DNA of 64,000 nt, from the sequence record MW233709. One strand, 5' to 3'. The notes beneath the pieces were generated by a model. It did no database searches, was not told where the DNA came from, and saw nothing but the letters and a program-made list of their open reading frames with translations. The position numbers and the translations under genes are program-made. This stretch comes from Escherichia phage UPEC01. Of this stretch, positions 571 to 63,240 are shown piece after piece (the first letter of the stretch is position 1; every line of letters starts with the position of its first letter).

Positions 571-606
571 GTGTACAAACTCTTGGGAGCATTATACTCT
601 GCTCCC
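571..606 (+). promoter_or_regulatory. early sigma70-like promoter with -10 inside a hairpin loop
   Basis: -35 GTGTAC 571-576, 17-nt spacer, -10 TATACT 594-599; stem GGGAGC 585-590 / GCTCCC 601-606. Confidence 0.5.
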
Positions 607-634
607 ACGGATTATAAAATTTGAGGAAATTATT

Positions 635-1856
<1,222 letters not shown>

Positions 1857-2614: not shown

Positions 2615-2643
2615 GTTTACTTTCACCACGGATGGTGTATAAT
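2615..2643 (+). promoter_or_regulatory. early promoter
   Basis: GTTTAC 2615-2620, 17-nt spacer with TG, TATAAT 2638-2643. Confidence 0.6.
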
Positions 2644-2672
2644 GAATTTCATCAACACATGAGGAAAACAAA

Positions 2673-3215
2673 ATGAGTAATTTCTTTGAAGAAGGCAAGT
2701 TTTACAAGTTCGCATCTGAAAATGCCAAAAAACAGTTTATTGCCGGAGGCTGGGCAGCTAATTACCAAATTGCCAAATACATCGGTATGACTCCGTTTGA
2801 AGTTAAGATTGTCCCTGATACTGCTAGCGGTGGAAGAAAAGTTTGTGAGATTCGTTTGATTGATGAAAAGAATTTTGTGGATTTGGCAAAAATATCTGGT
2901 GCAGAAAACAGGCATCATGGGGCAATGTTTGTTTCTGCTGGTCCATTGTCTGATGAATTTGATTATTTCATCCAAGCGGAAGTTGGCGTTAAGCCAGAAG
3001 TTGAACCTGTGCCAGTAAAACTTGCATCAGTTTGGAAATTGCTTGTGGTTAAAAATGGCAAGATTGAGATTAACTCTCGTCATGTGTCAAAAGAATATGC
3101 GGAAGGCGAAGCAGAGCGTCTGTTAAACCATGGTACTGCAGAAGATTGCTATATTATCAAAGGCGATATCACAAAAGCTTCTATCATTAAACAAGTAAAA
3201 CAGGAGACAATCTGA
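2673..3215 (+). CDS. hypothetical protein (cd.x-like cluster)
   Basis: 180-aa ORF; early promoter GTTTAC-N17-TGTATAAT at 2615-2643 and SD GAGGA upstream. Confidence 0.55.
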   Translation: MSNFFEEGKFYKFASENAKKQFIAGGWAANYQIAKYIGMTPFEVKIVPDTASGGRKVCEIRLIDEKNFVDLAKISGAENRHHGAMFVSAGPLSDEFDYFIQAEVGVKPEVEPVPVKLASVWKLLVVKNGKIEINSRHVSKEYAEGEAERLLNHGTAEDCYIIKGDITKASIIKQVKQETI

Positions 3216-4940: not shown

Positions 4941-5288
4941 ATGACCAAACAACATGGATTAAATATGGAATTACCAATTAAAGCAGTAGGTGAATATATT
5001 ATTTTGGTTTCTGAGCCAAAGCAAGCTGGTGATGAAGAAACTACGGCATCAGGTATCGTTATCGGAAAACTCCATCAGGGTGAAATCCCAGAGATGTGTG
5101 AAGTATTTTCGATTGGTCCGGATGTTCCTGAAGGTTTCTGTGAAGTGGGTGATTTGACTCCTCTTCCGGTTGGCAAGATTGCAAACGTTCCACATCCTCT
5201 GGTTGCTCTGGGACTTAAGCAGGCTAAAGAAGTTAAGCAGAAATTTGTGACCTGTCATTATAAAGCTGTTCCTTGTCTTTATAAGTAA
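4941..5288 (+). CDS. 31: GroES-like co-chaperonin for capsid protein folding (gp31)
   Basis: Protein ...[23 protein letters not shown]...[15 protein letters not shown] is near-collinear with T4 gp31 as recalled; true start may be ATG at 4965. Confidence 0.8.
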
Positions 5289-5297
5289 AATTAGCGT

Positions 5298-5305
5298 TAT
5301 AAATA
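5298..5305 (+). promoter_or_regulatory. late promoter TATAAATA upstream of rIII
   Basis: Exact TATAAATA just after gene 31 stop. Confidence 0.5.
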
Positions 5306-5445
5306 ATAATATGGATTGGCTGCCGGACCCGTTAGTTAACCGGAGAATCCTAAACGGTGGACTACAACTGAGAGACTTGCCGAAAGGAAGTGAAATTCAG
5401 AAGAACGTGTCCACCAAATATTCACCTCGTATTGAGGCTTCTAAA

Positions 5446-5700
5446 ATGTCTTTAAATAAACAATTACAACACGCTCTTGAACTGCAACGCACTGCATGGA
5501 ATAACGGTCACGAAAACTACGGCGCATCTATTGATGTTGAAGCCGAAGCACTGGAAATTCTGCAGTATTTCAAACATCTTAACCCGATTCAAACCGACCT
5601 TCGCGCAGTGCTCGAAGCAAAAGATGAACTGAAATTTGCTAAGCCGCTGGCATCTGCTGCGCGTAAAGCTGTTCGTCATTTTGTCGTAACCCTGAAGTAA
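5446..5700 (+). CDS. rIII: rIII lysis inhibition accessory protein
   Basis: 84 aa from internal ATG (MSLNKQLQHALELQRTAWNNGHENYG...), matching recalled T4 rIII; SD GAGG upstream; listed ORF start at 5311 judged an in-frame extension. Confidence 0.75.
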   Translation: MSLNKQLQHALELQRTAWNNGHENYGASIDVEAEALEILQYFKHLNPIQTDLRAVLEAKDELKFAKPLASAARKAVRHFVVTLK

Positions 5701-6097
5701 GCTGTAGGTGATTCGCTACCTTAGTGCGGCTAGAAAATCGAGGAGCCGCCGAATTATCTGATTAATGATTTGCGAATCATTATAGTTTTAGACCCCGATA
5801 ATTTTGTGGTGTACCTCTTGAATGTTATTCTTATAGCGGCAAGTGCATGCTACCCCGAGGTGATGGCCAATCGGGAGTACGCCTCAAGGCCTATATATCC
5901 ATCAGTATATATCTTATCCTCGAGAAATCGAACCCGGAACCTTTAAGCTAACGGTGTGCAACAGATAAGAGCTATAAGGTATGATGACGAGGTTTATGGT
6001 TATCCTGTCGTTAAATATCCGAAACCTAATGTTCCCTTCGAGGGCTTGCGCAGGCAATGCCAATAAGTCCTGCATTCTATTTTAAAGAGAATTTAAT

Positions 6098-6260
6098 ATG
6101 GCTAAGAAAGAAGTTAAAGTTGTTGATGGCTCCTCCAAACGCGATGGTTACAAGCGTGCGTCCAACAAGCGAATCAATCAGGTAACTGATAAACTTCAGG
6201 CTCGTGCTCGTGCGGTATTGCGTGCCGATGCAGCTTGCTTTGGTAAGCCGAAAGCATAAG
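6098..6260 (+). CDS. hypothetical small basic protein
   Basis: 53-aa ORF (below track cutoff) with SD AAGAGA and followed by strong terminator 6265-6290. Confidence 0.4.
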
Positions 6261-6264
6261 TTCA

Positions 6265-6290
6265 GGGACTCTTCGGAGTCCCTTTTTTAT
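6265..6290 (+). terminator. intrinsic terminator
   Basis: GGGACTC-TTCG-GAGTCCC followed by TTTTTTATTTT. Confidence 0.7.
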
Positions 6291-6303
6291 TTTCCATAAA
6301 GGG

Positions 6304-6333
6304 GTTTACAACAGGGTTGGTCCAGTGCATAAT
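6304..6333 (+). promoter_or_regulatory. early promoter with conserved leader
   Basis: GTTTAC 6304-6309, 18-nt spacer, CATAAT 6328-6333; downstream 23 nt identical to copy at 30559. Confidence 0.55.
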
Positions 6334-6374
6334 GATTCCATACTGAGTTACACAATAAAACACTGGAGAATAAA

Positions 6375-6743
6375 ATGAAAATCAATCTTAACTCATACAT
6401 CAAAGGTAAAGACCACGACGGTTACAAAGCCATTGAAACTAAAGAAATGCAATGGCACTTGTATAAAGAACAATTTGAATTCGTTTCTTGCATGACTCCA
6501 GAAGGTCCTTCTGATGACTTCTCCTGGAAAATTATGGTAACAAACTTTTTTACTGGTGATACCTACGAACTGAAAACTTTGATTCTTGGTAAGATTCGTT
6601 GTAAGACCTATGAAGATGAAGAAACTGGTTATTCTGAAGATGTTACATGGTATCAAAATGGTCGCACCACTGCTGATGATTTGATTGAAAAAATGAAAGC
6701 TAAGGGTGAATTAAATTTAGATAATTGGATTAAAGTCGCATAA
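6375..6743 (+). CDS. hypothetical early protein (30.x-like cluster)
   Basis: 122-aa ORF with early promoter at 6304-6333 and SD GGAG; leader nearly identical to that of ORF 30606. Confidence 0.5.
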   Translation: MKINLNSYIKGKDHDGYKAIETKEMQWHLYKEQFEFVSCMTPEGPSDDFSWKIMVTNFFTGDTYELKTLILGKIRCKTYEDEETGYSEDVTWYQNGRTTADDLIEKMKAKGELNLDNWIKVA

Positions 6744-6747
6744 AACA

Positions 6748-6787
6748 GTTTACTTTGGTACAGGTTATGATATTATAGACCTGTACC
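6748..6787 (+). promoter_or_regulatory. early promoter with -10 inside a hairpin loop
   Basis: GTTTAC 6748-6753, 17-nt spacer, TATTAT 6771-6776; inverted repeat GGTACAGGT 6757-6765 / ACCTGTACC 6779-6787. Confidence 0.55.
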
Positions 6788-6814
6788 AACAAATGAAAAC
6801 AACTGGAGAATAAA

Positions 6815-7180
6815 ATGAACTACATCAACTTTGAACGCAAATATGTTTCTAACTGCATCCCAGGTTCTTCTGAAGTTATTTGCTTGTGGAAACATAAAAA
6901 TGGTTCAGTGTGCGAAATTGAGCAGTATATGACTCCTAACTACGTTTATATGCGATTTGAAAATGGTATCACTCTTTCAATCACTATGACTGGTTCAACT
7001 TTTAAAATTGCTTTAGATGATGATTTCCGTGAACGTGATTTAGGGACTCATCCTTGCTGGAATGGTGTTAATCGCAAGCTGTTGGTTAAAACTTGGATTC
7101 GTCATATCCTGGGTAACAAAGCAAAACCTGAACACCTGGAAGCAATCTTTGATGTAGTTCTTAATGAATTTGATATCTAA
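6815..7180 (+). CDS. hypothetical early protein (30.x-like cluster)
   Basis: 121-aa ORF; promoter-in-hairpin element at 6748-6787 and SD GGAG upstream. Confidence 0.5.
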   Translation: MNYINFERKYVSNCIPGSSEVICLWKHKNGSVCEIEQYMTPNYVYMRFENGITLSITMTGSTFKIALDDDFRERDLGTHPCWNGVNRKLLVKTWIRHILGNKAKPEHLEAIFDVVLNEFDI

Positions 7181-7217
7181 TCTTAAATGGGGGCGAAAGC
7201 CCCTTGAGGAAAATACT

Positions 7218-7505
7218 ATGTTTATGACTACTTACTTTGATACACGTAAAAATTTCTGTGAAGTTGTTTTCTCTAAAAAAGGCCCTAATGTTCCTGCTGG
7301 GTGTGAACCAACACGCGATTCCATTAAGAACTATGTTGATGTAGTTTGCCCAGTTGAATTCAGGACTGTTAATGGACGTGATACTCTGGCAATCACCAAG
7401 CTTAGACGCGACATTGATATTGACCCAATTGCGGCGCGGGAAATTAATTCATCTGATATTAATGGCGGTAATGTTAAATCGCGCGGTTTCCTGACGAGGT
7501 TCTAA
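7218..7505 (+). CDS. hypothetical protein (30.x-like cluster)
   Basis: ATG at 7218 with SD GAGGA; track start at 7164 overlaps the GGGGC-GAAA-GCCCC hairpin at 7189-7203 and is less likely. Confidence 0.45.
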   Translation: MFMTTYFDTRKNFCEVVFSKKGPNVPAGCEPTRDSIKNYVDVVCPVEFRTVNGRDTLAITKLRRDIDIDPIAAREINSSDINGGNVKSRGFLTRF

Positions 7506-7699
7506 TGCAACTATTCTTATCACAAACAGTTCAGTTAAAAGGTGTGGGTATTCCTGGAATGATTTCTAAGGTCTTACCTGCTTTTAAATTGGGTAATAAC
7601 CAAATTAAAGAAGCCTATGTAGTCCTGTGGGTTGATGGAACTGAAGATGTTCGCATGGACGGTGAACTGTCTGTAATCAAATGTTTAAGGCGAGGATAA
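7505..7699 (+). CDS. hypothetical protein (30.x-like cluster)
   Basis: 64-aa ORF, tightly packed with neighbours. Confidence 0.4.
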   Translation: MQLFLSQTVQLKGVGIPGMISKVLPAFKLGNNQIKEAYVVLWVDGTEDVRMDGELSVIKCLRRG

Positions 7700-7700
7700 T

Positions 7701-7913
7701 ATGTTTAAGAAACTGATTCAGAAAATTTTGGGCACAGAAATGGTTGAAGTTACTTATCGCGTAACTGACGTGAGTCCATGGGCCCGAAATATTGAACCAT
7801 ATACTAAAACAATTAAAATGCTGAAATCTGACGGTGGATTATCTATTAAAGACCGTCTACCTGGTTATGGTCATTGGGCTGATGTAGATATTATCAGTGT
7901 CAAAGATGTCTGA
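7701..7913 (+). CDS. hypothetical protein (30.x-like cluster)
   Basis: 70-aa ORF, tightly packed with neighbours. Confidence 0.4.
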   Translation: MFKKLIQKILGTEMVEVTYRVTDVSPWARNIEPYTKTIKMLKSDGGLSIKDRLPGYGHWADVDIISVKDV

Positions 7914-8364
7914 GTTAGAAATCAGAAGCAATTTCCCATGGCCATCATGTGCATTAAGTAACTTTGCTAAATGGCCTTTTGTTATGGATGGCATCCAGTT
8001 TGGAGGTCTTGAAGGCTTCCTCCAAGGGTGTAAGGTGAGAAATCATGAACAACAAAAACGTATATTTGGGATGTCCGGTCTGGCCGCACAACAAACTGGA
8101 AGAGCTTATGCTAGAGCTGCGGACCGTGGGACGCTTTTCTGGCTTGGAATTCCCTTTTCAAGATACTCTGCATCATGGAAAGAGTTGTATACAAATGCTT
8201 ATTTTGAAGCAGCGCTTCAAAACAAAGGATTCCGCGACGCATTACAAGCTACAAAGGGCAAAGTTTTAAAGCATTCGATGGCGAGCCACCTTACTGTTCA
8301 TGATACAATATTGACTGAACAAGAATTTATTGACATACTTAACCAATTGAGAGATGCATTATGA
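7897..8364 (+). CDS. NADAR/YbiA-like (DUF1768-type) protein
   Basis: 155 aa; segment LSNFAKWPFVMDGIQFGGLEGFLQGCKV resembles the YbiA core DFSNFAAWPIKVDGKTWPTSEHYFQAQKF (recalled); position corresponds to T4 30.3. Confidence 0.5.
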   Translation: MSKMSELEIRSNFPWPSCALSNFAKWPFVMDGIQFGGLEGFLQGCKVRNHEQQKRIFGMSGLAAQQTGRAYARAADRGTLFWLGIPFSRYSASWKELYTNAYFEAALQNKGFRDALQATKGKVLKHSMASHLTVHDTILTEQEFIDILNQLRDAL

Positions 8365-9185
8365 AACCCGTTATTTTAACAGATATTGATGGCGTATGTT
8401 TGTCATGGCAGTCTGGCTTGCCTTATTTCGCCCAAAAATATAATTTACCCCTGGAACATATCCTTAAGATGATTCAGGATGAAAAATTTGTGACCCCTGG
8501 TAAACTGTTCAATTGTGATGAAGAGTTGGGAGCACAGTTGATTGAGAAATATAACTGTTCAGATTTTATTCGCTATTTGTCTCCTTACGCAGATGCATTA
8601 GGGGTTATTAATAACCTCAAAGAGCAATATGATTTTGTGGCTGTTACGGCTCTGGGTGATTCCATTGATGCCCGTCTGAATCGTCAATTCAACCTGAATG
8701 CTTTGTTCCCTGGCGCATTTAAAGAAGTGATGATGTGCGGCCATACAGCCTCTAAAGAAGAGTTATTTCAGAAAGCGAAGACCAAATATAATGTCGTTTG
8801 TTATATTGATGACCTTGCACACCATTGCGACCATGCGAGTGAAATCCTTGAAGTCCCGGTTTATTGGATGGCTCGTGGCGAACGTGATGCTATTCCTAAA
8901 ACAGCTTCCAAAGTTTTTAATTGGGACGATGTTGCTGGACAGCTTAAGTTGAAACACAAAGATGAACCGGTCAAACCCGAATTCACCCCAGATGAACTCC
9001 GTAAACTGGAAGAGTTGTTTCGTGAAAGTCGACGTCTTCAACAACAAATGCAGCAAGGATGGCAACCAGGTCAACCATGGACCCCTGGATATAATCCAGC
9101 ATATCCATATCAATATGGCCAGCGCGTAGGTACTGGTATTGAATACTGGTACAATCAACCGACCGGTGGCCAAGGGGGTAATTGA
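8361..9185 (+). CDS. HAD-like hydrolase with Q/P/G/Y-rich C-terminal tail
   Basis: 274 aa; HAD motif I LTDIDGV at N-terminus; C-terminal 50 aa low-complexity (QQQMQQGWQPGQPWTPGYNPAYPYQYGQ...). Confidence 0.55.
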   Translation: MKPVILTDIDGVCLSWQSGLPYFAQKYNLPLEHILKMIQDEKFVTPGKLFNCDEELGAQLIEKYNCSDFIRYLSPYADALGVINNLKEQYDFVAVTALGDSIDARLNRQFNLNALFPGAFKEVMMCGHTASKEELFQKAKTKYNVVCYIDDLAHHCDHASEILEVPVYWMARGERDAIPKTASKVFNWDDVAGQLKLKHKDEPVKPEFTPDELRKLEELFRESRRLQQQMQQGWQPGQPWTPGYNPAYPYQYGQRVGTGIEYWYNQPTGGQGGN

Positions 9186-13135: not shown

Positions 13136-13165
13136 GTTTACAAGCACAAGGAAGTGCGATACAAT
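13136..13165 (+). promoter_or_regulatory. early promoter
   Basis: GTTTAC 13136-13141, 18-nt spacer, TACAAT 13160-13165; leader 3' end identical to that at 2656-2676. Confidence 0.55.
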
Positions 13166-13196
13166 GTTCATATCAATTGCACATGAGGAAAACAAA

Positions 13197-13487
13197 ATGA
13201 AATCATCTTTTCGCTTTAATGGTCAGGAACTGGTAGTTGAGAATGTTATCCCGGCTTCAGAAGAGTTTGACAGCGCGGTGGGTAATGAACTGCGGCGTGT
13301 GTTTGGCGAAGATAAGAAGTTTGACCTTCGCCCTGTTGAAAACTTTGTAAATTCTGAACAAACAGAAAATATTTTTAATGGTGTAGTAACTGGGCAACTT
13401 GAATCTGAAGCACCAATTGCAATTACAGTCTTTGCTAAGAAAGAAGTTGTAATGACTGCAGCAGGTTTCATTTCATTCCGCAAATAA
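13197..13487 (+). CDS. hypothetical early protein downstream of alt
   Basis: 96 aa from ATG 13197 with SD GAGGA; early promoter 13136-13165; terminator 13486-13516. Confidence 0.5.
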   Translation: MKSSFRFNGQELVVENVIPASEEFDSAVGNELRRVFGEDKKFDLRPVENFVNSEQTENIFNGVVTGQLESEAPIAITVFAKKEVVMTAAGFISFRK

Positions 13488-13516
13488 AAAAGGGACCTTC
13501 GGGTCCCTTTCTTTTT
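13486..13516. terminator. bidirectional intrinsic terminator (alt region + / gene 54 -)
   Basis: AAAAAA-GGGACC-TTCG-GGTCCC-TTTCTTTTT. Confidence 0.7.
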
Positions 13517-20382: not shown

Positions 20383-20772
20383 ATGAATATAAACAAAATG
20401 TATAGCGATGTGTCTCCCGACTTATCTACAAGTTGGGATAAAGACGTTGCTAAAGTAACCGGTGCAAGGTCTGTTAAGAACAGTCTTCTGGGAATAATCA
20501 CCACAAGAAAAGGGTCAAGGCCTTTTATGCCTGAATTTGGATGTGATATAAGTAATCAGCTTTTTGAGAATATCACTCCATTAATCACAGATACCATTAA
20601 ACGCAACATCGTCTCCGCTGTGCGGAACTTTGAACCAAGGATAAGCAATCTACAGGTTGCAGTTGTCCCTATGTATGATGATAACTCCATTATCGTAACG
20701 GTTCAGTTCAGCATTGTTGATGACCCTGATACCCTCGAACAAATCAGGATTCAGCTAAGTCAAAACGGTTAA
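20383..20772 (+). CDS. 25: baseplate wedge subunit, lysozyme-like fold (gp25)
   Basis: 129 aa; NINKMYSD...LLGIITTRKGSRPF.PEFGCD...NFEPRI collinear with recalled T4 gp25. Confidence 0.9.
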   Translation: MNINKMYSDVSPDLSTSWDKDVAKVTGARSVKNSLLGIITTRKGSRPFMPEFGCDISNQLFENITPLITDTIKRNIVSAVRNFEPRISNLQVAVVPMYDDNSIIVTVQFSIVDDPDTLEQIRIQLSQNG

Positions 20773-20797
20773 TGCTTTAATTTTATGGCTGTATAAT
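20771..20797 (+). promoter_or_regulatory. middle-type promoter cassette upstream of uvsY
   Basis: aaTGCTTTA 20771-20779, 12-nt spacer, TATAAT 20792-20797, followed by GGTTCTAGACC. Confidence 0.6.
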
Positions 20798-20825
20798 GGT
20801 TCTAGACCCTTACATTGGATACATT

Positions 20826-22085: not shown

Positions 22086-22780
22086 TATATTTCCACCTGT
22101 TTAATTAAATTTCTGATTTTATATAAAGAAAGCCCCGTTGCTACAGAAGCTTGCTTCATCGAACCATATTCAATCCCGTTTAAAACCACTTTCTTAGCGG
22201 CAGGATTTTTGGATGGGTCTTTATAACGTTCTTTTGCTTTATCTGAAATTTTCTTTGATGCTTCTGGTGTATGTGATTTACCATACATCCAATTACCTTC
22301 ACCTTTATTTCTTTCGGATATAGCTTGACATTGTGCTTGAGAGTATTTATACGGATTCGCTTTCTTTGTCGCAGATATTTTATCGGCCCAAGTTATTTTG
22401 CGACCCTTTAATAATTGGCTCATATATTCTTTATGTTCTTCAGTATGGTGCTTACCATAAAAAGGATTGCCTTCACCAGTCTGAAGAACTGACATTTGTC
22501 TACGCTCCCATCCATACGATTTATTGAATTGTCGTTGATGTGTTCGAGAGCTCATACCCATAGCAATGACGGCCTTTATAAGACCGTAATGATTGGGATG
22601 AATTTTGGCCAATAATTTATGTGCAATAAAATGTTCTTCCGGAGTAAGGTTGACTCTGTTTTCTTGTGTATCAGGTCCACCCATACATTCTGGAATGATA
22701 TGGTGAGATTCCGTGTATCCAATCGGTTTGGAAGCCTTTCGGCTCCCAATTAAATCATCATATATTTTTTGATAATTCAA
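22085..22780 (-). CDS. HNH homing endonuclease (free-standing)
   Basis: 231 aa; HNH motif HHIIPECMGG...NRVNLTPEEHFIAH; two GEGN-x-YGK-H-T-E repeats (NUMOD-like); TTG start 4 nt after SD; flanked by 19-bp direct repeats. Confidence 0.85.
   Translation of the reverse strand: MNYQKIYDDLIGSRKASKPIGYTESHHIIPECMGGPDTQENRVNLTPEEHFIAHKLLAKIHPNHYGLIKAVIAMGMSSRTHQRQFNKSYGWERRQMSVLQTGEGNPFYGKHHTEEHKEYMSQLLKGRKITWADKISATKKANPYKYSQAQCQAISERNKGEGNWMYGKSHTPEASKKISDKAKERYKDPSKNPAAKKVVLNGIEYGSMKQASVATGLSLYKIRNLIKQVEI
22089..22107. repeat. 19-bp direct repeat ATTTCCACCTGTTTAATTA (copy 1)
   Basis: Identical to 22781-22799; on - strand encodes IKQVEI-stop plus SD for uvsW.1. Confidence 0.9.
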
Positions 22781-24276
22781 ATTTCCACCTGTTTAATTAC
22801 ATAGTTAAAACGTTCATCAGCATATCGTTGTATACGTTCAAGGCCATGTTTTAGGGCAAAGTTCAAATGAACATATTTCTTTTTAGCATTTGCCGATTTA
22901 GGTTTAACACCCATATCATCAACGATATCAAAAACGTTTGCTTGTGATTTGGATTCATGTTTTCTAAGCACACGACCAATTGTCTGGAGTACAATTACCT
23001 TTGACTTGACCGGGTGAGCGAAAATAATATGATGGAGGTTTTTAACGGAAATCCCCGTTGAGAATACACCATATGAAGCTACAACAATAATTCCCTTTCC
23101 ATTCTCTGCCATGACCTTCAGAGCATTACGAGTTTCGGTATCGACTTCCCCAGAAACATAATACACTTTTTCATGACCAGCTTCCTTAAGCATTTCAAAC
23201 ATCGATTTACCATGCTCGATATTCTTAAACATCAAAAAGACGTTTTCATCTTTTTTAGAAAGCTTGAGTGCAAGGTTTGTTACCCATTTATTTCGGCGTG
23301 CAGCTTTTGTAATTACCTTGATTTCATCCTGATAAGTTTTACCTTTCATTTTAACGGTGAATTCATCAGGGTAACGAAGGAAAATACTATTTATTTTAAG
23401 GTCAGTAACCTGACCATCTTCCATTAATTTAGATGTTGATACTGGTTTAAAGATATCACCAAACAGACCCATATATTGCATAAGGTTGGCTTTGCCATCA
23501 CGGAGTGAACCTGACAGACCAAATTTAAACATGCAATTCGTAAGGCCTTCGATAACCGTCGAAATCGATTTACCTGTAGCCATATGACATTCGTCATTCA
23601 TAAACTGACCGAACTGTTCAAACCATTCTTTAGGTTGTTTTACAGCCGTCTGATAAGTCGATACATAAATCATCGCATCAGAATCGCGTTTAGTCCCGGA
23701 ACGAATACCCAGACAAGCTGCACGAGGGAAAAGCCGATAATCAACAAAGTCATTAATCATCTGGTCAACAAGGGCCGTTGTAGGAACAAGGATAAGTACC
23801 TTGCCTTCATAGTTCTCGAGATAATATCGCGCCAGAAGCGCCTGGATGAGGCTTTTACCTGCAGACGTAGGTAAGTTCAGAATCTTTCTTCTGTTGACCA
23901 GACCATCATATACGGCGTCAGATTGATACCAATGGGGCGTTATCTTGGTATTGCCTGAATAGATTTCTTTTGACTCGACCCATTTGTCGAATTCTTCGCG
24001 AGAGATTTCTTCTTTCTCGGTGATTTGCGGGTCAATCCAGAATGAATAACCAAACTGGTCAGCGAACTTTTTAATTTGATTAACCAAACCGTATGGTAAT
24101 TTACGATTGTAATCCAGGAGGCGGATTCGTCCGTCCCAAACTCCCTGCTTGAACTTTGGATTGAAGCGATAGTTTTCAGCTTCGAAGCTGAAGTAATCAC
24201 GGAGTTCGTAGAAGATTCCATCTTCACATTCAACATGCACGTGACTAAAATTTAGAAAGTTGATTTTAATATCCAT
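22777..24276 (-). CDS. uvsW: UvsW SF2 DNA/RNA helicase
   Basis: 499 aa from MDIKINF...; Walker A LPTSAGKS and DECH box; collinear with recalled T4 UvsW; track ORF start at 24315 judged an extension. Confidence 0.9.
   Translation of the reverse strand: MDIKINFLNFSHVHVECEDGIFYELRDYFSFEAENYRFNPKFKQGVWDGRIRLLDYNRKLPYGLVNQIKKFADQFGYSFWIDPQITEKEEISREEFDKWVESKEIYSGNTKITPHWYQSDAVYDGLVNRRKILNLPTSAGKSLIQALLARYYLENYEGKVLILVPTTALVDQMINDFVDYRLFPRAACLGIRSGTKRDSDAMIYVSTYQTAVKQPKEWFEQFGQFMNDECHMATGKSISTVIEGLTNCMFKFGLSGSLRDGKANLMQYMGLFGDIFKPVSTSKLMEDGQVTDLKINSIFLRYPDEFTVKMKGKTYQDEIKVITKAARRNKWVTNLALKLSKKDENVFLMFKNIEHGKSMFEMLKEAGHEKVYYVSGEVDTETRNALKVMAENGKGIIVVASYGVFSTGISVKNLHHIIFAHPVKSKVIVLQTIGRVLRKHESKSQANVFDIVDDMGVKPKSANAKKKYVHLNFALKHGLERIQRYADERFNYVIKQVEI
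22781..22799. repeat. 19-bp direct repeat ATTTCCACCTGTTTAATTA (copy 2)
   Basis: Identical to 22089-22107; on - strand encodes the UvsW C-terminus IKQVEI-stop plus SD for the HNH gene. Confidence 0.9.
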
Positions 24277-26141: not shown

Positions 26142-26170
26142 AAAAAGGGACCTTCGGGTCCCTTTATTTT
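26142..26170 (+). terminator. intrinsic terminator after hoc
   Basis: AAAAA-GGGACC-TTCG-GGTCCC-TTTATTTTT. Confidence 0.7.
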
Positions 26171-26775: not shown

Positions 26776-26803
26776 TTTGCTTCAAATAAAATTGTGGTAT
26801 AAT
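26776..26803 (+). promoter_or_regulatory. middle-type promoter cassette upstream of rnlB
   Basis: ttTGCTTCA 26776-26784, 13-nt spacer, TATAAT 26798-26803, followed by GGTTCTAGACC. Confidence 0.6.
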
Positions 26804-26901
26804 GGTTCTAGACCTTCCGATACGATTAATTTCTTTTCAGAGAAAGAAAGTATAGAGAGTCTAATTTATAATGATATTTATAACATCAAAAGTGAGAGAT
26901 T

Positions 26902-27940: not shown

Positions 27941-29213
27941 CCAGTGGCGGAAGTTTAACGCCAAGATAAGAACTCAATTGGCTTTGGTTAGCCATCTTAT
28001 CCATATCAGCCCCATCAATAAGGCGGGCTTCTTTATCGTCTTTAGCAACGGTATAGGGGTTCGCTGTCAATGCATAACGAGCTAACAGTGCAACCGTAGG
28101 CTGTAAGCTTTCAGGGTCAACAATAACCTTGAATTCTCCGACCGATGTATCCCCCTCATCATCAACTTCGCTAAGTCCTTCCGTATAAGGCGCATAATAC
28201 AAAGATGCGACCGTCTGACCTTCACCCATATCAGCATTTACACCGACAATAACATAATCACATGGACTATTCATATCTGCGTAAAGAGGCAAACCGTTCT
28301 TCAGAACACCATAGGCTAATTCATCCTGGTCTTCCTTTTTCTCAACCCAGCCAGAAGCGGCTAAAATAGCTGCACAACGGGAAGAAGCAACCGCATATGT
28401 ACCAGCAAACGAAGTCTGACGTTGAACTGCAGAATTCATTTCACACATATAATAATACAGGGTTCGTGCGCGGTCCTGTGCGTTATCATATTTCGGGTCA
28501 GTGAGATTCAACACACCTTTTTCAGAAACACCTTGTACCTTGAAGCGAGAACTAACAGTAATAAGGGATTGCAATACATCCTTATTAATTTCCTCTGCCA
28601 TTTGAATGCCGAGAATATTATCGATGAAGTCTGTTGCATCGAAACCGTTTGCTTCCAGGTCCTGAGCAAGCTCGACAGTTAAAGAAGTTTTCAACTTTCT
28701 GGATTTAACTTCAGTCTGCCATTTATCGATACGGAAACCAGCTTCAGCAATTTCAGGATGCCCCTTTTCAAATTTATCAGTGAAAGCAGCATCTGACATC
28801 ATTCTTATATGTCCAGCAGCAATGGCTTCAGAAATAACTTCACCTAAATCAGTTTCGAGTGTCCCGGCAAAGGGGGAAGCTTCCAGAACTTTGAATACAA
28901 CGCTTTCAAACTGAAACATATCGCCGACTGCATAAGCTTCATCTTTGTTCGTAAATTCTGGAATATTCTTACGCTCGAACATACCAATCTGACCTGCAAA
29001 TGTTGCTCCACCGAGATATGTCATTTTATCATCTGGGTTCAGAACACGAACACCATACAACGCTGCAACAGGCTGTGTAGTTTTCTGTTCGGCAACGAGT
29101 GCTTTAAAAATTCGTTTATTCGTGGCCTGGGTATAAGAAAGCAAATTAGGACGGGCGACCTGGTTGGCCGCCGTTAATGTTGATTCGTGAATTAGTGCGT
29201 TAATCTTTTGCAT
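27930..29213 (-). CDS. head vertex protein gp24 paralog (diverged second copy)
   Basis: 427 aa; shares gp24 family blocks (VKSRKLKT.LTVELAQDLEANGF, EINKDVLQSLITVS, FKVIVDPESLQP, ANPYTVAKDDKEAR) with the upstream copy but is clearly diverged. Confidence 0.8.
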   Translation of the reverse strand: MQKINALIHESTLTAANQVARPNLLSYTQATNKRIFKALVAEQKTTQPVAALYGVRVLNPDDKMTYLGGATFAGQIGMFERKNIPEFTNKDEAYAVGDMFQFESVVFKVLEASPFAGTLETDLGEVISEAIAAGHIRMMSDAAFTDKFEKGHPEIAEAGFRIDKWQTEVKSRKLKTSLTVELAQDLEANGFDATDFIDNILGIQMAEEINKDVLQSLITVSSRFKVQGVSEKGVLNLTDPKYDNAQDRARTLYYYMCEMNSAVQRQTSFAGTYAVASSRCAAILAASGWVEKKEDQDELAYGVLKNGLPLYADMNSPCDYVIVGVNADMGEGQTVASLYYAPYTEGLSEVDDEGDTSVGEFKVIVDPESLQPTVALLARYALTANPYTVAKDDKEARLIDGADMDKMANQSQLSSYLGVKLPPLEKE

Positions 29214-30494
29214 TTACGCCTCATAAATGATTGGCGGAAGTTTAACACCGAGCAGATAAGACATATTGCTCTGACCGGCCATTAAATCCATATTGGTTGC
29301 ATCGATAATACGAGCTTCTTTATCGTCTTTAGCAACGGTGTAAGGGTTAGCTGAAAGTGCATAACGAACCATCAAAGAGATAGCTGGTTGCAAACTGTCA
29401 GGGTCCACAATGACTTTAAACGCGCCTACATGCTCTTCATCATCTAAGTCCAGGCCTTCGGTATAAGGAGCATAGAAGATTGAGCCTACGACTTCGTTTC
29501 CGCCGTAATTTTCTTTAACGCCAACGGTTACATAATCCAATGGACTGTTAACATCACAGAATACAGGAAGACCATTAATCAAATAACCGTACGCTGTTTC
29601 AGGAAGCCACTGTTCGTCTTCAGGTTTATGCTTCAGCCAGCCAGAACCGGCCAACATAGCAGCAACACGGCTGGAGGCAACAACAAAGGTACCGGAATAA
29701 GATGTAGTTTTCTGAATTTCGGAGTTCATTTCGCAAACCAGTTCGTACAGTTTACGTGCGCCTTCTGGAGCTGCATCATATGTTAAATCGATGGTGCCAT
29801 TGTCAGAAACACCAGTTACTTTATAACGCTTGGAAACGGTAATAAGAGACTGAAGAACATCTTTGTTAATTTCATCTGCCATAATAGTAGCAAGCAGGTC
29901 TTCCAGGAAAGCAGGAGCATTAAAGCCATTTGCTTCCATATCCTGAGCAAGCTCAACAGTTAATGCAGTTTTCAATTTACGGGATTTAACAGGAGCATTC
30001 CATTTATTAACCTGGAATACAGCGTTACTAATTTCAACATCACCGGCTTCAAATTTCTCGGTGTGCGCTGCATCAGGAACCAAACGAATGGTTAATGCAA
30101 TAAGACCTTCTTGCAGAACATCTGATAATACAGTTTCGGTAGTCGATGCAAATGGATTATCAACCAGAGCTTTGTAAACGATATTTTGGTATTTTACATA
30201 TTCGCCTTTAGCAACAGGCTGAGTGGCTGTAGTTAATTCTGGAATAGTTGTACGGTCTTTAGAACCGACTTCGCCTCCATAAGTAGCGCCCGTCTGGAAA
30301 CTGAATTCATTATCAGGAGTAAGATATTTAACACCATACAGTGCAGCAACAGGCTGGTTAGTACGTTGTTCAGCGATGATATCGCGGTAAATCAATTTAG
30401 TCGTAGCGCGGGTCAAAGCAACAAGATTCGGGCGGCCCAATGAGTTGCTGGTAGTAATAGTTGACTCGCGCAGTAATTTGTTAATCTTTGCCAT
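29214..30494 (-). CDS. 24: head vertex protein gp24
   Basis: 426 aa; MAKINKLLRESTITTSNSLGRPNLVALTRATTKLIY... closely matches recalled T4 gp24; late promoter at 30521-30528. Confidence 0.9.
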   Translation of the reverse strand: MAKINKLLRESTITTSNSLGRPNLVALTRATTKLIYRDIIAEQRTNQPVAALYGVKYLTPDNEFSFQTGATYGGEVGSKDRTTIPELTTATQPVAKGEYVKYQNIVYKALVDNPFASTTETVLSDVLQEGLIALTIRLVPDAAHTEKFEAGDVEISNAVFQVNKWNAPVKSRKLKTALTVELAQDMEANGFNAPAFLEDLLATIMADEINKDVLQSLITVSKRYKVTGVSDNGTIDLTYDAAPEGARKLYELVCEMNSEIQKTTSYSGTFVVASSRVAAMLAGSGWLKHKPEDEQWLPETAYGYLINGLPVFCDVNSPLDYVTVGVKENYGGNEVVGSIFYAPYTEGLDLDDEEHVGAFKVIVDPDSLQPAISLMVRYALSANPYTVAKDDKEARIIDATNMDLMAGQSNMSYLLGVKLPPIIYEA

Positions 30495-30520
30495 TTGCGC
30501 TTTCCTTTTGTGATATACTT

Positions 30521-30528
30521 TATTTATA
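30521..30528 (-). promoter_or_regulatory. late promoter upstream of gene 24
   Basis: TATAAATA on - strand 27 nt upstream of gp24 ATG. Confidence 0.6.
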
Positions 30529-30534
30529 AAAGTT

Positions 30535-30564
30535 GTTTACAACCAGATTAAGATAAGACATAAT
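30535..30564 (+). promoter_or_regulatory. early promoter with conserved leader
   Basis: GTTTAC 30535-30540, 18-nt spacer, CATAAT 30559-30564; leader matches copy at 6328. Confidence 0.55.
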
Positions 30565-30605
30565 GATTCCATACTGAGTTAACAAACAAAACCTGGAGTT
30601 TAAAA

Positions 30606-30887
30606 ATGAACAAAGCAACTTTCCTTCTGAACACCTTTAAAAAATTGGAAATTGAAGTTATTGCATTGGTCAACAAATACCCAAATGGCGTTAATGGTAA
30701 TGCTCTGAACAAACTAGTTAAAAAATATGAAAACTTAGCATATGACACTGATTTCTGGTGGAATGGTAATTATTCTACTCACACTAAAGATAAAAATGGT
30801 AACTGGTTGAAACTTCAAGAAAACAATGTTAACTTCAGAGACCTCATCAAGCGCCGGGTAGAAGTTCATTTAAATGGTATGGTATGA
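30606..30887 (+). CDS. hypothetical early protein inserted between genes 24 and 23
   Basis: 93-aa ORF on opposite strand to the capsid operon; own early promoter 30535-30564, SD GGAG, bidirectional terminator 30895-30921. Confidence 0.55.
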   Translation: MNKATFLLNTFKKLEIEVIALVNKYPNGVNGNALNKLVKKYENLAYDTDFWWNGNYSTHTKDKNGNWLKLQENNVNFRDLIKRRVEVHLNGMV

Positions 30888-30894
30888 AAACAAG

Positions 30895-30921
30895 AAAGGG
30901 ACCTCAAGGGTCCCTTTTTAT
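30895..30921. terminator. bidirectional intrinsic terminator (ORF 30606 + / gene 23 -)
   Basis: AAA-GGGACC-TCAAG-GGTCCC-TTTTTATTT. Confidence 0.65.
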
Positions 30922-30937
30922 TTAACTTAATCTAAGA

Positions 30938-32497: not shown

Positions 32498-32518
32498 GTG
32501 TTGTATAACCTTATTAAA

Positions 32519-33337
32519 TTAAGAAATTCGTGATGCTGCGAGAGCAGACAAGTCCGCGAAGGACAGGGTAGGCTTGGCGCCTTTTTCTTCAACTGCTTCT
32601 GAAATGTAATTCAGTGCCGCAGCATCGTCTACATTTTTATTTATAGCGGCTTCGGTGATTGGTTTGTCGGTGGGTTCTACCTGACCTTTAACCATTTCAA
32701 CGATAGCGCCAATTTTGGTACCGAATGCATCAGAGTATTCCATGCCTTCTACCAGAGAACCAACTTTTTCTTTTTGGGATTCAGTCAGGTCTTTAGTTGC
32801 TTCAGTCAACGCAACTTCACGTTGGACATAATTGATATAAGCATCACGCTTAGAAACTTCTTCGAACAGGTTAGCGGTTTCTTCTTTCTGTTCAGCCAGT
32901 TCTTCCTGCATTTCTGCAACAACATCGACAGATTCTTCTGGAACAACAACGTTGTGCTCAACGAACAGTTCTTTCATGCCGGTGAACATGGATTCGAACA
33001 GGTCAGCTTTAATGCCACGGTCGACAGCCAGTTTATTTTCAGCGAGCCATTCTTTAGCAACGTGGTCCAGGAATTTAGCTGCAGATTCTTTCAGTTTTTT
33101 CTCTGCTTTTTCGTCGGCTTCTTCTTTATTCTTTTCGACTTCTTCTTCAGCTTTTTCAGCGATGGCGTGAATGTGAGATTCTGCCAGTTTGATGGCGTGT
33201 TGCTTGACGGTAGCTTCGAATACAGTGCCGAAGGTAGCTTTCGCTTCCGGGGACAAATTAACTGATTCGAAAATACTATCGAGAGCAACGGAAGCATCGA
33301 TATTCTGAGCTTCAGAAATGAGTTGTTCTTTAAGCAT
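32519..33337 (-). CDS. 22: prohead core scaffold protein gp22
   Basis: 272 aa, highly charged helical; position between 21 and 23. Confidence 0.85.
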   Translation of the reverse strand: MLKEQLISEAQNIDASVALDSIFESVNLSPEAKATFGTVFEATVKQHAIKLAESHIHAIAEKAEEEVEKNKEEADEKAEKKLKESAAKFLDHVAKEWLAENKLAVDRGIKADLFESMFTGMKELFVEHNVVVPEESVDVVAEMQEELAEQKEETANLFEEVSKRDAYINYVQREVALTEATKDLTESQKEKVGSLVEGMEYSDAFGTKIGAIVEMVKGQVEPTDKPITEAAINKNVDDAAALNYISEAVEEKGAKPTLSFADLSALAASRIS

Positions 33338-36985: not shown

Positions 36986-37021
36986 TTTTACTGCTAATTA
37001 ATTCTTTCTAAGCGATGATAA

Positions 37022-50596: not shown

Positions 50597-50599
50597 GAA

Positions 50600-50623: not shown

Positions 50624-50625
50624 TG

Positions 50626-63239: not shown

Positions 63240-63240
<1 letters not shown>

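What the first reader, a model, noticed from the sequence alone, without database searches (positions are those of the whole stretch)
6304..6377. Duplicated promoter-plus-leader cassettes shared between unrelated early genes
The leader from the -10 to the start codon at 6328-6377 and at 30559-30608 begins with 23 identical nucleotides (CATAATGATTCCATACTGAGTTA) and ends with a similar AAAAC-CTGGAG-A/T-rich-ATG, although the downstream proteins are unrelated. A second pair (2656-2676 and 13180-13200) shares 21 identical nucleotides CACATGAGGAAAACAAAATGA. Both leader types place GGAG or GAGGA in the SD, the kind of site cut by T4 RegB endoribonuclease in early mRNAs. This indicates regulatory cassettes are copied between loci, and these genes are likely early and RegB-regulated.
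Basis: partly seen in the sequence, partly recalled or inferred. Interest (0 to 1): 0.5.

Follow-up and report, generated by a model that had tools for sequence, protein, structure and literature searches.

The report
Shared early promoter-leader cassettes in T4-like phage
The repeated stretches are real copies of a multi-copy early promoter, leader and ribosome-site cassette of a T4-like phage, a known kind of element (PeSL) that switches on early genes and marks the borders where genes are swapped between related phages.

Summary
Both exceed chance, since 100 simulated sequences gave no exact repeat above 20 nt. The window is a Gaprivervirus (SP18/VR7/TH41-like T4 relative).

The four sites are T4-type early promoters (GTTTAC, 17-18 nt, TATAAT-like) with short, A-rich, unstructured leaders ending in a Shine-Dalgarno sequence and ATG. 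They front unrelated genes: 30.8, a VR7ORF190c-like ORF, a VR7ORF232c-like ORF and alt.-3.

They are not private duplications. Relative VR7 carries the ATACTGAGTTA leader start 11 times, always 6 nt after a -10 box on the early strand, and a second type (ATCAACTAC) 13 times. Similarity is confined to UP, -35 and -10 to +13; the spacers are at background.

T4 has promoter cassettes at the same positions, and its genes there give early RNA. Gene swaps between phages break exactly at the cassette borders. This matches the published PeSL cassettes.

The RegB idea holds in part. 30.8 and 30.7 carry the exact RegB/S1 consensus GGAGAAUAAAA. The 30535 leader matches 9 of 11 positions. The second pair has GGAA, a poor substrate.

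Verdict: new member of a known kind.

The parts
6264..6289 (+). Intrinsic terminator hairpin (AGGGACTC-TTCG-GAGTCCCT followed by a T run) closing the 30.9 unit; the stem-loop part of the cassette in front of 30.8
   Evidence: RNA fold -14.2 kcal/mol, z = -3.8; also found by the terminator scan; the same hairpin sits at the same place in T4, teqdroes and Kpn BM7
6304..6333 (+). T4-type early promoter of 30.8: -35 GTTTAC(A) at 6304-6310, 17-nt spacer, -10 CATAAT at 6328-6333; A/T-rich stretch just upstream
   Evidence: the VR7 family profile shows conserved UP, -35 and -10 blocks with a variable spacer
6340..6350 (+). Conserved start of the transcript, ATACTGAGTTA. The start site is predicted at A6340, 7 nt after the -10; it has not been mapped.
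   Evidence: 11 exact copies in VR7, all on the early strand and all 6 nt after a -10, with no one-mismatch copies; also 4 copies in Morganella phage MP1 and 1 in Dhakavirus IME341
6365..6375 (+). Shine-Dalgarno GGAG plus A-rich tail, GGAGAATAAAA: an exact match to the RegB/S1 11-nt target consensus. It overlaps the first base of the ATG (6375-6377).
   Evidence: (PMC1702504); the leader 6340-6392 folds with MFE 0 kcal/mol, so it is predicted single-stranded
6375..6743 (+). Gene 30.8 (122 aa)
   Evidence: Pfam Phage_30_8, E = 7e-44; SP18 and VR7 annotation
6748..6815 (+). Next cassette, early promoter of 30.7: -35 GTTTAC 6748-6753, -10 TATTAT 6771-6776, an 11-bp stem (6755-6789) straddling the -10, second exact GGAGAATAAAA at 6805-6815, ATG at 6815. 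It shares 18 nt (6802-6819) with the 30.8 leader (6362-6379).
   Evidence: fold -17.4 kcal/mol, z = -5.3; the orthologous promoter and stem are conserved in T4
30521..30528 (-). Late-promoter consensus TATAAATA (read on the - strand) for the divergent gene 24 (start codon at 30494-30492). It overlaps the A/T-rich region upstream of the early promoter at 30535.
   Evidence: sequence; same arrangement in T4 between gene 24 and segD; function inferred from the T4 late-promoter consensus
30535..30564 (+). T4-type early promoter: -35 GTTTAC(A) at 30535-30541, 17-nt spacer, -10 CATAAT at 30559-30564
30571..30605 (+). Leader: ATACTGAGTTA (30571-30581, predicted start site 30571), an A-rich stretch, then GGAGTTTAAAA (30595-30605), which matches 9 of 11 positions of the RegB/S1 consensus
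   Evidence: fold -1.6 kcal/mol, z = +1.4
30606..30887 (+). Small early-strand ORF (93 aa, VR7ORF190c / JS98 ORF173c-like), lying alone between late genes 24 and 23; T4 has segD at this position
   Evidence: no Pfam family
30893..30919 (+). Terminator hairpin closing the single-gene early unit
   Evidence: fold -17.0 kcal/mol, z = -3.2; a member of the GGGACC...GGTCCC hairpin family
2615..2676 (+). Early promoter (-35 GTTTAC 2615-2620, -10 TATAAT 2638-2643) and leader ending in the shared 21-mer 2656-2676 (SD GAGG 2661-2664, ATG 2673-2675). It fronts the ORF at 2673-3215 (VR7ORF232c-like).
   Evidence: the T4 ortholog is annotated Pe133295 and fronts cd.2 with the same ATGAGGAAAACAAAATG
13136..13200 (+). 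Early promoter (-35 GTTTAC 13136-13141, -10 TACAAT 13160-13165) and leader ending in the shared 21-mer 13180-13200 (ATG 13197-13199). It fronts alt.-3 (13197-13487). A terminator stem follows at 13489-13510.
   Evidence: Pfam DUF5498; the T4 alt.-3 ortholog has ACATGAGGAACACAAAATG

Best explanation
The repeats are four members of a genome-wide family of early regulatory cassettes of a T4-like phage (genus Gaprivervirus), of the kind published as PeSLs (promoter-early stem-loops).

Anatomy. Each cassette has an A/T-rich upstream region, a -35 G(T/G)TTAC(A), a 17-18-nt variable spacer and a -10 (T/C)ATAAT. Next comes a short, A-rich, unstructured leader whose first 11-13 nt are one of two fixed sequences (AUACUGAGUUA or AUCAACUAC). 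The cassette ends in a strong Shine-Dalgarno sequence and the ATG. Often an intrinsic terminator hairpin lies just upstream, or a hairpin straddles the promoter.

How it most likely works (inferred from T4). Host sigma-70 RNA polymerase fires these promoters immediately after infection. The open leader gives efficient translation. Where the Shine-Dalgarno sequence is GGAGAAUAAAA (30.8 and 30.7), the phage RegB nuclease with ribosomal protein S1 cuts it minutes later and shuts the message off. The upstream terminator insulates each unit.

Why the copies look alike. They share descent, and the polymerase-contacting block (-12 to +13) and the ribosome site are under strong selection.

Evolutionary role. 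Because the same 18-23-nt blocks flank unrelated small genes, they act as portable homology. Genes are inserted, lost or swapped between related phages at these borders.

Shown here: the anatomy, the copy number, the block-wise conservation and the exchange borders. Inferred: early timing, the transcription start sites, RegB cleavage and the recombination mechanism.
For: Exact repeats are beyond chance.

Promoter anatomy at all four sites.

Family size in VR7: 11 exact ATACTGAGTTA and 13 ATCAACTAC on the early strand, with 0 and 2 on the other strand. All 11 type-A copies follow a -10 box and precede a Shine-Dalgarno/ATG of small ORFs. There are 9-13 BLAST places per Gaprivervirus genome.

Conservation is block-like: UP, -35 and -10 to +13 are conserved, while spacers are at background.

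Hairpins: a terminator upstream of the 30.8 promoter and a stem straddling the -10 of the 30.7 promoter.

Leaders are 47% A and far less structured than random same-strand windows (P = 2e-13).

T4 has early-type promoter-like sequences and leaders at the orthologous positions, with the same terminator / promoter / Shine-Dalgarno layout. T4 30.8, 30.7, cd.2 and alt.-3 are classed as early RNA, and segD as early RNA.

Module exchange at cassette borders:
- Tequatrovirus teqdroes is 93-100% identical to T4 per 40-nt window upstream of the 30.8 ATG and from about 10 nt past its stop. Inside the ORF it is 85-95% like this window and 38-72% like T4.
- T4 segD and the ORF190c-like gene occupy the same promoter-to-terminator slot.
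- An ORF232c-like gene sits between the cd.2-type cassette and cd.2.
- SP18 has an extra 30.6A unit right after the 30.9 terminator.

RegB: the gene is present in the genus, and the exact 11-nt RegB/S1 consensus is present at 6365 and 6805.

The published PeSL definition and the recombination evidence match this layout.
Against: There are no transcription or cleavage data for this phage. Start sites, early timing and RegB cutting are inferred from T4.

The stem-loop component is uneven. It is clear at 6304 and 6748, only weak 4-5-bp hairpins lie in the spacers at 2615 and 13136 (whole region not better than shuffles), and there is none upstream of 30535.

Most indels between this window and VR7 lie at homing-endonuclease or late-region variable genes, not at these cassettes.

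Exchange borders coinciding with cassettes could simply reflect that intergenic conserved DNA is the only available homology.

The pair-2 sequence is conserved at both loci since before the T4 split, so for that pair selection rather than copying explains the present identity.
Confidence: 0.8

Rival explanations
1. Independent convergence. The loci were never copied from one another. Each promoter, leader and ribosome site has been driven to the same optimum by selection (strong sigma-70 promoter, good escape sequence, open A-rich leader, optimal Shine-Dalgarno sequence, RegB/S1 site).
For: Conservation is confined to functional blocks while spacers are at background. GGAGAAUAAAA is a known functional consensus shared by many T4 early genes. 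The pair-2 sequence ATGAGGAA[A/C]ACAAAATG is kept at both orthologous loci in T4, so it is old and maintained by selection.
Against: No known requirement specifies 11-23 exact nucleotides after the -10. T4 uses different sequences at the same positions: TAGTATtatcttACACAAAC and TATTATaatcatATACAAAC. The type-A subfamily shares the non-consensus C of CATAAT, which selection for promoter strength would not produce. In T4 the alc and alt.-3 promoters match at 52 of 53 nt, spacer included, which shows real copying in this phage group.
Confidence: 0.12
2. The invariant transcript start (AUACUGAGUUA) is itself a specific regulatory RNA or DNA signal. It would be a binding or processing site for a phage or host factor that defines a co-regulated set of small early genes. 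The cassette similarity would then be a by-product of that regulon rather than of recombination.
For: All 11 VR7 copies are exact, with no one-mismatch copies, while the adjacent leader varies by indels. Exact copies also occur in the distant Morganella phage MP1 (4) and in Dhakavirus IME341 (1). The motif begins exactly at the predicted +1.
Against: No factor is known. No Rfam family matches. The RNA is unstructured. T4 (100-150 kb checked) lacks the motif yet expresses the orthologous genes early. The block from -12 to +13 is also what RNA polymerase contacts in the open complex, so ordinary promoter function can explain it. The copies outside VR7 were found by an exact-match search, so they are biased towards perfect copies.
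Confidence: 0.07
3. Chance resemblance among A/T-rich intergenic sequences.
For: The genome is A/T-rich (59% A+T), and generic sigma-70-like matches are no more frequent than in shuffles (40 found against 35.7 expected).
Against: No simulation gave an exact repeat of 21 nt or more. The 11-mer occurs 11 times on one strand of VR7 and never on the other. My own estimate for a random 169-kb genome is under 0.1 copies. Every copy is in register with a -10 box.
Confidence: 0.01

Closest known systems
PeSL (promoter-early stem-loop) cassettes of T4-like phages: RB49/phi1 (Arbiol et al. 2010, PMC2839356); T4/PST and KVP40/nt-1 (Comeau et al. 2014, PMC4122927)
   Same: Composite of an A/T-rich region, a sigma-70-type early promoter (for T4/PST: TTTACW, N17, TAYWAT), a stem-loop upstream of or overlapping the promoter, and the Shine-Dalgarno sequence plus start codon at the 3' end. 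Many copies per genome, mostly before small ORFs of unknown function. Gene insertions, deletions and replacements between close relatives have borders in the cassettes. Crossovers were mapped between the -10 and the ATG. All of this matches.
   Different: This genus (Gaprivervirus) was not analysed in those papers. The stem-loop is absent or weak at three of the four sites in the finding. The near-invariant first 11-13 transcribed nucleotides, in two classes, are not described there. Mini-circle formation was not and cannot be tested here.
Bacteriophage T4 early promoters (Pe), as reviewed by Hinton 2010 (PMC2988021)
   Same: Very strong UP / -35 / (TGn) / -10 promoters used by unmodified host polymerase. 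That review notes that alignments show additional regions of consensus. T4 has early-type promoter-like sequences at the orthologous positions, and its genes there are early. In T4 itself the alc and alt.-3 promoters plus leaders match at 52 of 53 nt.
   Different: The -10 here is often CATAAT, and the -35 in the relatives is often GTGTAC. The sequence from -6 to +13 differs from T4 at the same loci.
RegB/S1 cleavage sites in T4 early mRNAs (Durand et al. 2006, PMC1702504; Uzan and Miller 2010, PMC3014915)
   Same: An 11-nt single-stranded target, GGAGRAYARAA (T4 consensus GGAGAAUAAAA), lying in the Shine-Dalgarno region of early genes. 30.8 and 30.7 here carry it exactly in unstructured leaders, and the genus encodes RegB.
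   Different: The 30535 leader deviates at positions 5 and 6. Pair 2 has A at position 4 (GGAA), reported as very poorly cut. No cleavage data exist for this phage.

Membership tests
PeSL cassette | Sigma-70-type early promoter, -35 and -10 about 17 nt apart (T4/PST form TTTACW, N17, TAYWAT) | tested here: met
   TTTACA-17-CATAAT (6305; 30536), TTTACT-16-TATAAT (2616), TTTACA-17-TACAAT (13137). CATAAT departs from TAYWAT at its first base.
PeSL cassette | Stem-loop just upstream of, or overlapping, the promoter | tested here: inconclusive
   Clear at 6264-6289 (upstream of the 30.8 promoter, z = -3.8) and at 6755-6789 (straddling the -10 of the 30.7 promoter, z = -5.3). Only 4-5-bp hairpins in the spacers at 2615 and 13136 (region z > 0). 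None upstream of 30535, where a divergent late promoter lies instead. About 4 of the 11 VR7 type-A copies have the upstream GC hairpin.
PeSL cassette | A/T-rich region upstream of the -35 | tested here: met
   AAAAAG-type consensus upstream of the -35 in the family profile; window sequences.
PeSL cassette | Shine-Dalgarno sequence and start codon of the downstream gene form the 3' end | tested here: met
   GGAG or GAGG lies 6-8 nt before the ATG at all four sites; leaders are 19-45 nt in VR7.
PeSL cassette | Many conserved copies per genome, mostly before small variable ORFs | tested here: met
   VR7 has 11 type-A and 13 type-B copies on the early strand, mostly before unnamed small ORFs; 9-13 places per Gaprivervirus genome. 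Only the relatives could be scanned genome-wide; the window itself holds about 7-8 early promoters.
PeSL cassette | Gene insertion, deletion or replacement between related phages has its borders in the cassettes | tested here: met
   30.8 ORF swap between T4 and teqdroes, bounded by the two cassettes; segD against the ORF190c-like gene; the ORF232c-like insertion; SP18 30.6A after the terminator. Anecdotal, not a statistical test; most window/VR7 indels lie elsewhere.
PeSL cassette | Recombination between neighbouring cassettes yields excised mini-circles | not testable with these tools
   Needs inverse PCR on infected cells. The 18-nt repeat at 6362/6802 would predict a 440-bp circle carrying 30.8.
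T4-type early promoter (Pe) | Active immediately after infection without phage protein synthesis | not testable with these tools
   Indirect only: the T4 genes at the orthologous positions are classed as early RNA, and T4 annotates Pe133295 at the cd.3/cd.2 junction.
RegB/S1 target site | GGA plus G at position 4, followed by an A-rich 7-mer without C at positions 5, 6 and 9 (GGAGRAYARAA) | tested here: met
   Met exactly at 6365-6375 (30.8) and 6805-6815 (30.7). 30595-30605, GGAGTTTAAAA, matches 9 of 11 positions.
RegB/S1 target site | Same feature, applied to the second pair (2656-2676 and 13180-13200) | tested here: not met
   GAGGAAAACAAAA has A at position 4 (GGAA). Durand et al. report GGAA as very poorly cut even with a perfect A-rich tail.
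RegB/S1 target site | Target is single-stranded | tested here: met
   Predicted MFE is 0 and -1.6 kcal/mol for the two type-A leaders, less structure than in shuffles; family-wide P = 2e-13. This is a prediction, not probing.
RegB/S1 target site | The phage encodes RegB | tested here: inconclusive
   regB lies outside the 64-kb window. The relative VR7 has it (gp120; Pfam REGB_T4, E = 3.8e-72). pseT (polynucleotide kinase, which helps decay after RegB cuts in T4) is in the window at 952-1857.

The most novel reading that the evidence does not exclude
The exact 11-13-nt transcript start AUACUGAGUUA(C/A)C may be a sequence-specific functional signal in its own right. It is found on 11 early units per Gaprivervirus genome with no degenerate copies. 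It is also found exactly in the distant Morganella phage MP1 (4 copies) and once in a Dhakavirus, but not in T4 (100-150 kb checked). It could tune promoter escape by (Alt/Mod-modified) polymerase, or control 5'-end-dependent stability or factor binding, and so define a lineage-restricted early regulon carried on mobile cassettes.
Probability: 0.25. Interest if true: 0.55.

Novelty: new member of a known kind. Interest (0 to 1): 0.28.

Why it matters
It shows that the published PeSL picture also applies to Gaprivervirus phages, which are used and isolated widely as E. coli, Shigella and Yersinia phages. In that picture, early promoter, leader and ribosome-site cassettes serve both as expression units and as the seams along which T4-like genomes exchange small genes.

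It gives concrete, testable sites:
- two exact RegB/S1 consensus sites (6365, 6805);
- a predicted 440-bp excisable 30.8 module (repeats at 6362/6802);
- a clean natural example of a gene swap bounded by cassettes (T4 against teqdroes).

The one point that goes beyond the literature I could read is the invariant first 11 transcribed nucleotides, which may merit a promoter-escape or RNA-stability experiment. Otherwise the finding is ordinary for T4-like phages.

Tried and rejected
- Generic sigma-70 and terminator scan: 40 promoter-like sites against 35.7 expected, so not discriminating.
- Rfam on the whole window: no family.
- The search for related loci with gp30.8 and with the ORF190c-like protein returned only close relatives. 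Replaced by tblastn over the phage collection and five targeted fetches.
- The apparent 1-kb insertion near the 30535 locus in MN01 and TH41: the MN01 map shows the same gene order and sizes as VR7, so I take the extra span as an effect of the tandem gene-24 paralogs on the joined alignment. I did not align it.
- Window against VR7 indels: mostly homing endonucleases and late-region variable genes, so they give no support for cassette-mediated change inside this window.
- IMG/VR scan for ATAAT-N6-ATACTGAGTTA: the 18 loci from contigs outside the known phage genomes lack a -35 and a Shine-Dalgarno sequence and look like chance matches to a 16-base pattern. Only the Gaprivervirus, MP1 and IME341 hits are real.
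- Literature search for the motif itself returned only unrelated primer hits. The T4 genome review (PMC150520) is not held.
- I looked by eye for leader hairpins pairing the 5' end with the Shine-Dalgarno sequence; folding shows none.
- A first script was submitted empty, and one script failed on file names.
- The alt.-3 protein was mistranslated (start off by one base); it was retranslated correctly, and the correct frame was used for Pfam.
Full report
**1. The observation**

The sequence is as described. CATAATGATTCCATACTGAGTTA lies at 6328-6350 and at 30559-30581. CACATGAGGAAAACAAAATGA lies at 2656-2676 and at 13180-13200.

In 100 third-order Markov simulations of the window the longest exact direct repeat was 14-20 nt. 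Both repeats therefore exceed chance.

The repeat list of the window is dominated by regulatory DNA. After a 26-nt repeat inside the tandem gene-24 paralogs come a 24-nt terminator hairpin, these two leaders, an 18-nt ribosome-site repeat (6362/6802) and an 18-nt middle-promoter repeat.

From the -10 to the ATG the two pairs are 0.90 and 0.85 identical. Other early-promoter pairs in the window are 0.52-0.68 identical. The -35/-10 spacers of the two pairs are at background, 0.50 and 0.56.

The downstream proteins are unrelated. BLASTP found nothing better than E = 0.5 among gp30.8, gp30.7, the ORF190c-like and the ORF232c-like proteins; alt.-3 was mistranslated in that run. By Pfam they are Phage_30_8, Phage_T4_Gp30_7, DUF5498 for alt.-3, and no family for the other two.

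**2. What the window is**

It is a T4 relative of the genus Gaprivervirus. It is 100% identical to TH41 over 5-9 kb and about 95-97% identical to SP18, VR7 and others.

On the + strand run early genes: pseT, cd, 31, rIII, 30.9 to 30.1, 30 and alt. The virion genes follow on the - strand.

| Site | Gene it fronts |
|---|---|
| 2615 | VR7ORF232c-like ORF (2673-3215) |
| 6304 | 30.8 (6375-6743) |
| 13136 | alt.-3 (13197-13487) |
| 30535 | 93-aa VR7ORF190c-like ORF (30606-30887), lying alone on the early strand between late genes 24 and 23 |

**3. Anatomy**

All four sites are T4-type early promoters: GTTTAC(A), a 16-17-nt spacer, then TATAAT, CATAAT or TACAAT. A fifth promoter lies at 6748 in front of 30.7. 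Weaker ones lie at 571, 26261 and 63240.

The 30.8 promoter is preceded by a terminator hairpin with a UUCG loop and a U run (6264-6289; -14.2 kcal/mol, z = -3.8). The 30.7 promoter has an 11-bp stem straddling its -10 (-17.4 kcal/mol, z = -5.3). The ORF190c-like unit ends in its own terminator.

The predicted start site is the A located 7 nt after the -10. This is exactly where the conserved ATACTGAGTTA begins.

The leaders are 35 nt long and unstructured, with MFE of 0 and -1.6 kcal/mol, which is less structure than in shuffles.

**4. A family, not two pairs**

I fetched the whole genome of relative VR7.

- ATACTGAGTTA occurs 11 times, all on the early strand. My own estimate for a random 169-kb genome is under 0.1 copies. 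Every copy lies 6 nt after a -10 box and before a Shine-Dalgarno sequence and the ATG of a mostly unnamed small ORF.
- Six copies carry the full 23-mer of the finding.
- About four copies have a GC hairpin and T run just upstream.
- A second leader start, ATCAACTAC, occurs 13 times on the early strand. The pair-2 leaders (ATCAA...CACATGAGG) are variants of it.
- GGAGAATAAAA occurs 9 times on the early strand and never on the other; GAGGAAAACAAAATG occurs 4 times.
- Per-column conservation is block-like. The A/T-rich upstream region, the -35 and a nearly invariant block from -12 to +13 are conserved. The spacer is poorly conserved, and the leader downstream varies with indels.
- There are no one-mismatch copies of the type-A 11-mer.
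- Leaders as a class are 47% A and much less structured than random same-strand windows (P = 2e-13).

Each Gaprivervirus genome has 9-13 BLAST places for the 50-nt leader.

The type-A start also occurs exactly four times in Morganella phage MP1 (Gualtarvirus) and once in Dhakavirus IME341, before frd.1. It does not occur in T4 between 100 and 150 kb. The type-B leader is widespread among T-even phages, including T4 and T2.

**5. Comparison with T4 at the same positions**

T4 has the same layout at every one of these loci.

| Locus | T4 arrangement |
|---|---|
| 30.9 to 30.8 | hairpin, GTTTACA, 17 nt, TAGTAT, then ...ACACAAACAAAGGAGAATAAAATG |
| 30.7 | the same promoter with the same stem |
| cd.3/cd.2 | the annotated Pe133295, ending AAATGAGGAAAACAAAATG |
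| alt.-3 | ACATGAGGAACACAAAATG |
| gene 24/segD | late promoter, TTTACA, 17 nt, TATTAT, leader, segD, terminator |

Three conclusions follow.

- First, the positions of the cassettes are old.
- Second, the pair-2 ribosome-site sequence was already shared by the two loci before T4 and this genus split. Selection, not recent copying, keeps it identical.
- Third, the 23-mer of pair 1 is lineage-restricted. T4 has different sequences from -12 to +10 at both loci, whereas here both loci carry the form that is multi-copy in this genus. That points to spread or homogenisation within the lineage.

T4 shows such copying itself: its alc and alt.-3 promoters plus leaders match at 52 of 53 nt, spacer included.

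In published T4 omics tables 30.8, 30.7, cd.2 and alt.-3 are early at both the RNA and the protein level, and segD has early RNA (PMC9697503 supplement).

**6. Cassettes as exchange borders**

- Tequatrovirus teqdroes is 93-100% identical to T4 (per 40-nt window) up to the 30.8 ATG, and again from about 10 nt after its stop, through the 30.7 promoter. Inside the 30.8 ORF it is 85-95% like this window and 38-72% like T4. One ORF allele has therefore been exchanged, bounded by the two cassettes.
- T4 segD and the ORF190c-like gene occupy the same promoter-to-terminator slot.
- In this window an ORF232c-like gene sits between the cd.2-type cassette and cd.2, which has its own Shine-Dalgarno sequence.
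- SP18 has an extra 30.6A unit, with its own hairpin, inserted right after the 30.9 terminator.

These cases are anecdotal. Most indels between the window and VR7 involve homing endonucleases or late-region variable genes.

**7. RegB**

Durand et al. define the RegB/S1 target as 11 single-stranded nucleotides, GGAGRAYARAA, with T4 consensus GGAGAAUAAAA. They report GGAA as very poorly cut.

| Leader | Sequence | Match |
|---|---|---|
| 30.8 (6365-6375) | GGAGAATAAAA | exact |
| 30.7 (6805-6815) | GGAGAATAAAA | exact |
| 30535 unit (30595-30605) | GGAGTTTAAAA | 9 of 11 |
| Pair 2 | GAGGAAAAC | fails at position 4 |

The genus encodes RegB (VR7 gp120; Pfam REGB_T4, E = 3.8e-72), but the gene lies outside the window. 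pseT, whose kinase helps the decay of RegB-cut RNA in T4, is in the window.

**8. Comparison with what is known**

The layout and behaviour match the PeSL cassettes of Arbiol et al. 2010 and Comeau et al. 2014. Those are A/T-rich region, early promoter, stem-loop upstream of or overlapping the promoter, and Shine-Dalgarno sequence plus ATG at the 3' end. They are multi-copy, lie next to variable small ORFs, and their crossovers map between the -10 and the ATG.

Membership is met on promoter, A/T-rich region, Shine-Dalgarno/ATG, copy number and association with exchanges. It is mixed on the stem-loop and untestable for mini-circles.

Hinton's review already notes extra regions of consensus in T4 early promoters.

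I found no description of these cassettes in Gaprivervirus or of the invariant transcript start in the library available to me. No Rfam family matches.

**9. Verdict**

This is a new member of a known kind. Its interest is modest, apart from the sharply bounded, exact conservation of the first 11 transcribed nucleotides across several genera. That could reflect a specific function in initiation or in RNA fate.

Noticed in passing
window 20763-20825 (+), 26797-26831 (+), 36941-36982 (+), 61265-61225 (-): A second repeated regulatory family: MotA-box middle-promoter-like sites (TGCTT, about 12 nt, TATAAT) that all continue with GGTTCTA(GACC). There is an 18-nt exact repeat at 20791 and 26797. 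One site is at the uvsY position (T4 oriF region) and one is upstream of rnlB. Two point antisense into late-gene clusters, beside window/VR7 indels at 37000-37022 and 61187. The 36941 copy has GTAGAACC...GGTTCTAC arms around the promoter, like the PmSL described for phage nt-1. VR7 has 5 copies.
   Followed up: partly
window 22089-22107 and 22781-22799: A 19-nt exact direct repeat, ATTTCCACCTGTTTAATTA, flanks a ~690-bp insert (22110-22781). The insert is 73% identical to the VR7 homing-endonuclease gene ORF236w and is absent at this place in VR7. It looks like a homing-endonuclease insertion with a duplicated ribosome-site-like border.
   Followed up: no
window 13487-13510, 26142-26165, 30889-30924, 50598-50633: A family of near-identical terminator hairpins, AAAAAGGGACCTTCGGGTCCCTTT (24 nt exact at 13487 and 26142). 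Regulatory stem-loops are repeated as well as promoters.
   Followed up: partly
window 27945-28142 and 29232-29429: Gene 24 (capsid vertex protein) is present as two tandem, diverged copies (71% identity over the 198-nt repeat; spacing 1287), as annotated in VR7 as 24(1) and 24(2).
   Followed up: no
L008 (T4 NC_000866) 136336 and 123093, - strand: In T4 the early promoters plus leaders of alc and alt.-3 match at 52 of 53 nt (GTTTACAAGTCCCTCGTGTTGTGTTATAGTAGTCTTACT[G/A]ACATAACATGAGGA), spacer included: a duplicated promoter-leader in the type phage.
   Followed up: partly
L018 (phage teqdroes NC_054932) 221-600: A Tequatrovirus whose flanks are T4-like but whose 30.8 ORF is of the Gaprivervirus type (94% aa identity to this window, against ~39% for typical Tequatrovirus records): a clean inter-genus allele swap bounded by two promoter cassettes.
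   Followed up: yes
window 5000-9000 versus 29000-33000: The window is 100% identical to phage TH41 over 5-9 kb. Over 29-33 kb its best match is TH40 at 97.2%, and TH41 is listed at 95.1% as a two-piece match of 5,056 bases, longer than the query. The source may be a mosaic or a phage not in the collection, but the TH41 figure may be lowered by the gene-24 paralogs; I did not align it.
   Followed up: no
window 571-635 and 63240-63320: Two further early-type promoters with GTGTAC at -35 and inverted repeats straddling the -10: GGGAGCA..TATACT..TGCTCCC at 571 and GTGTAGG..TATTAT..CCTACAC at 63240. These have the PeSL geometry most common in RB49.
   Followed up: no
L008 (T4) 133261-133275: The T4 record starts cd.2 at a GTG. 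The ATG directly after the GAGGAAAACAAAATG ribosome site would give MLLSEKPITV, matching this window's cd.2 N-terminus MLSETPITV. This suggests a frame or start-site discrepancy in the T4 annotation or sequence.
   Followed up: no
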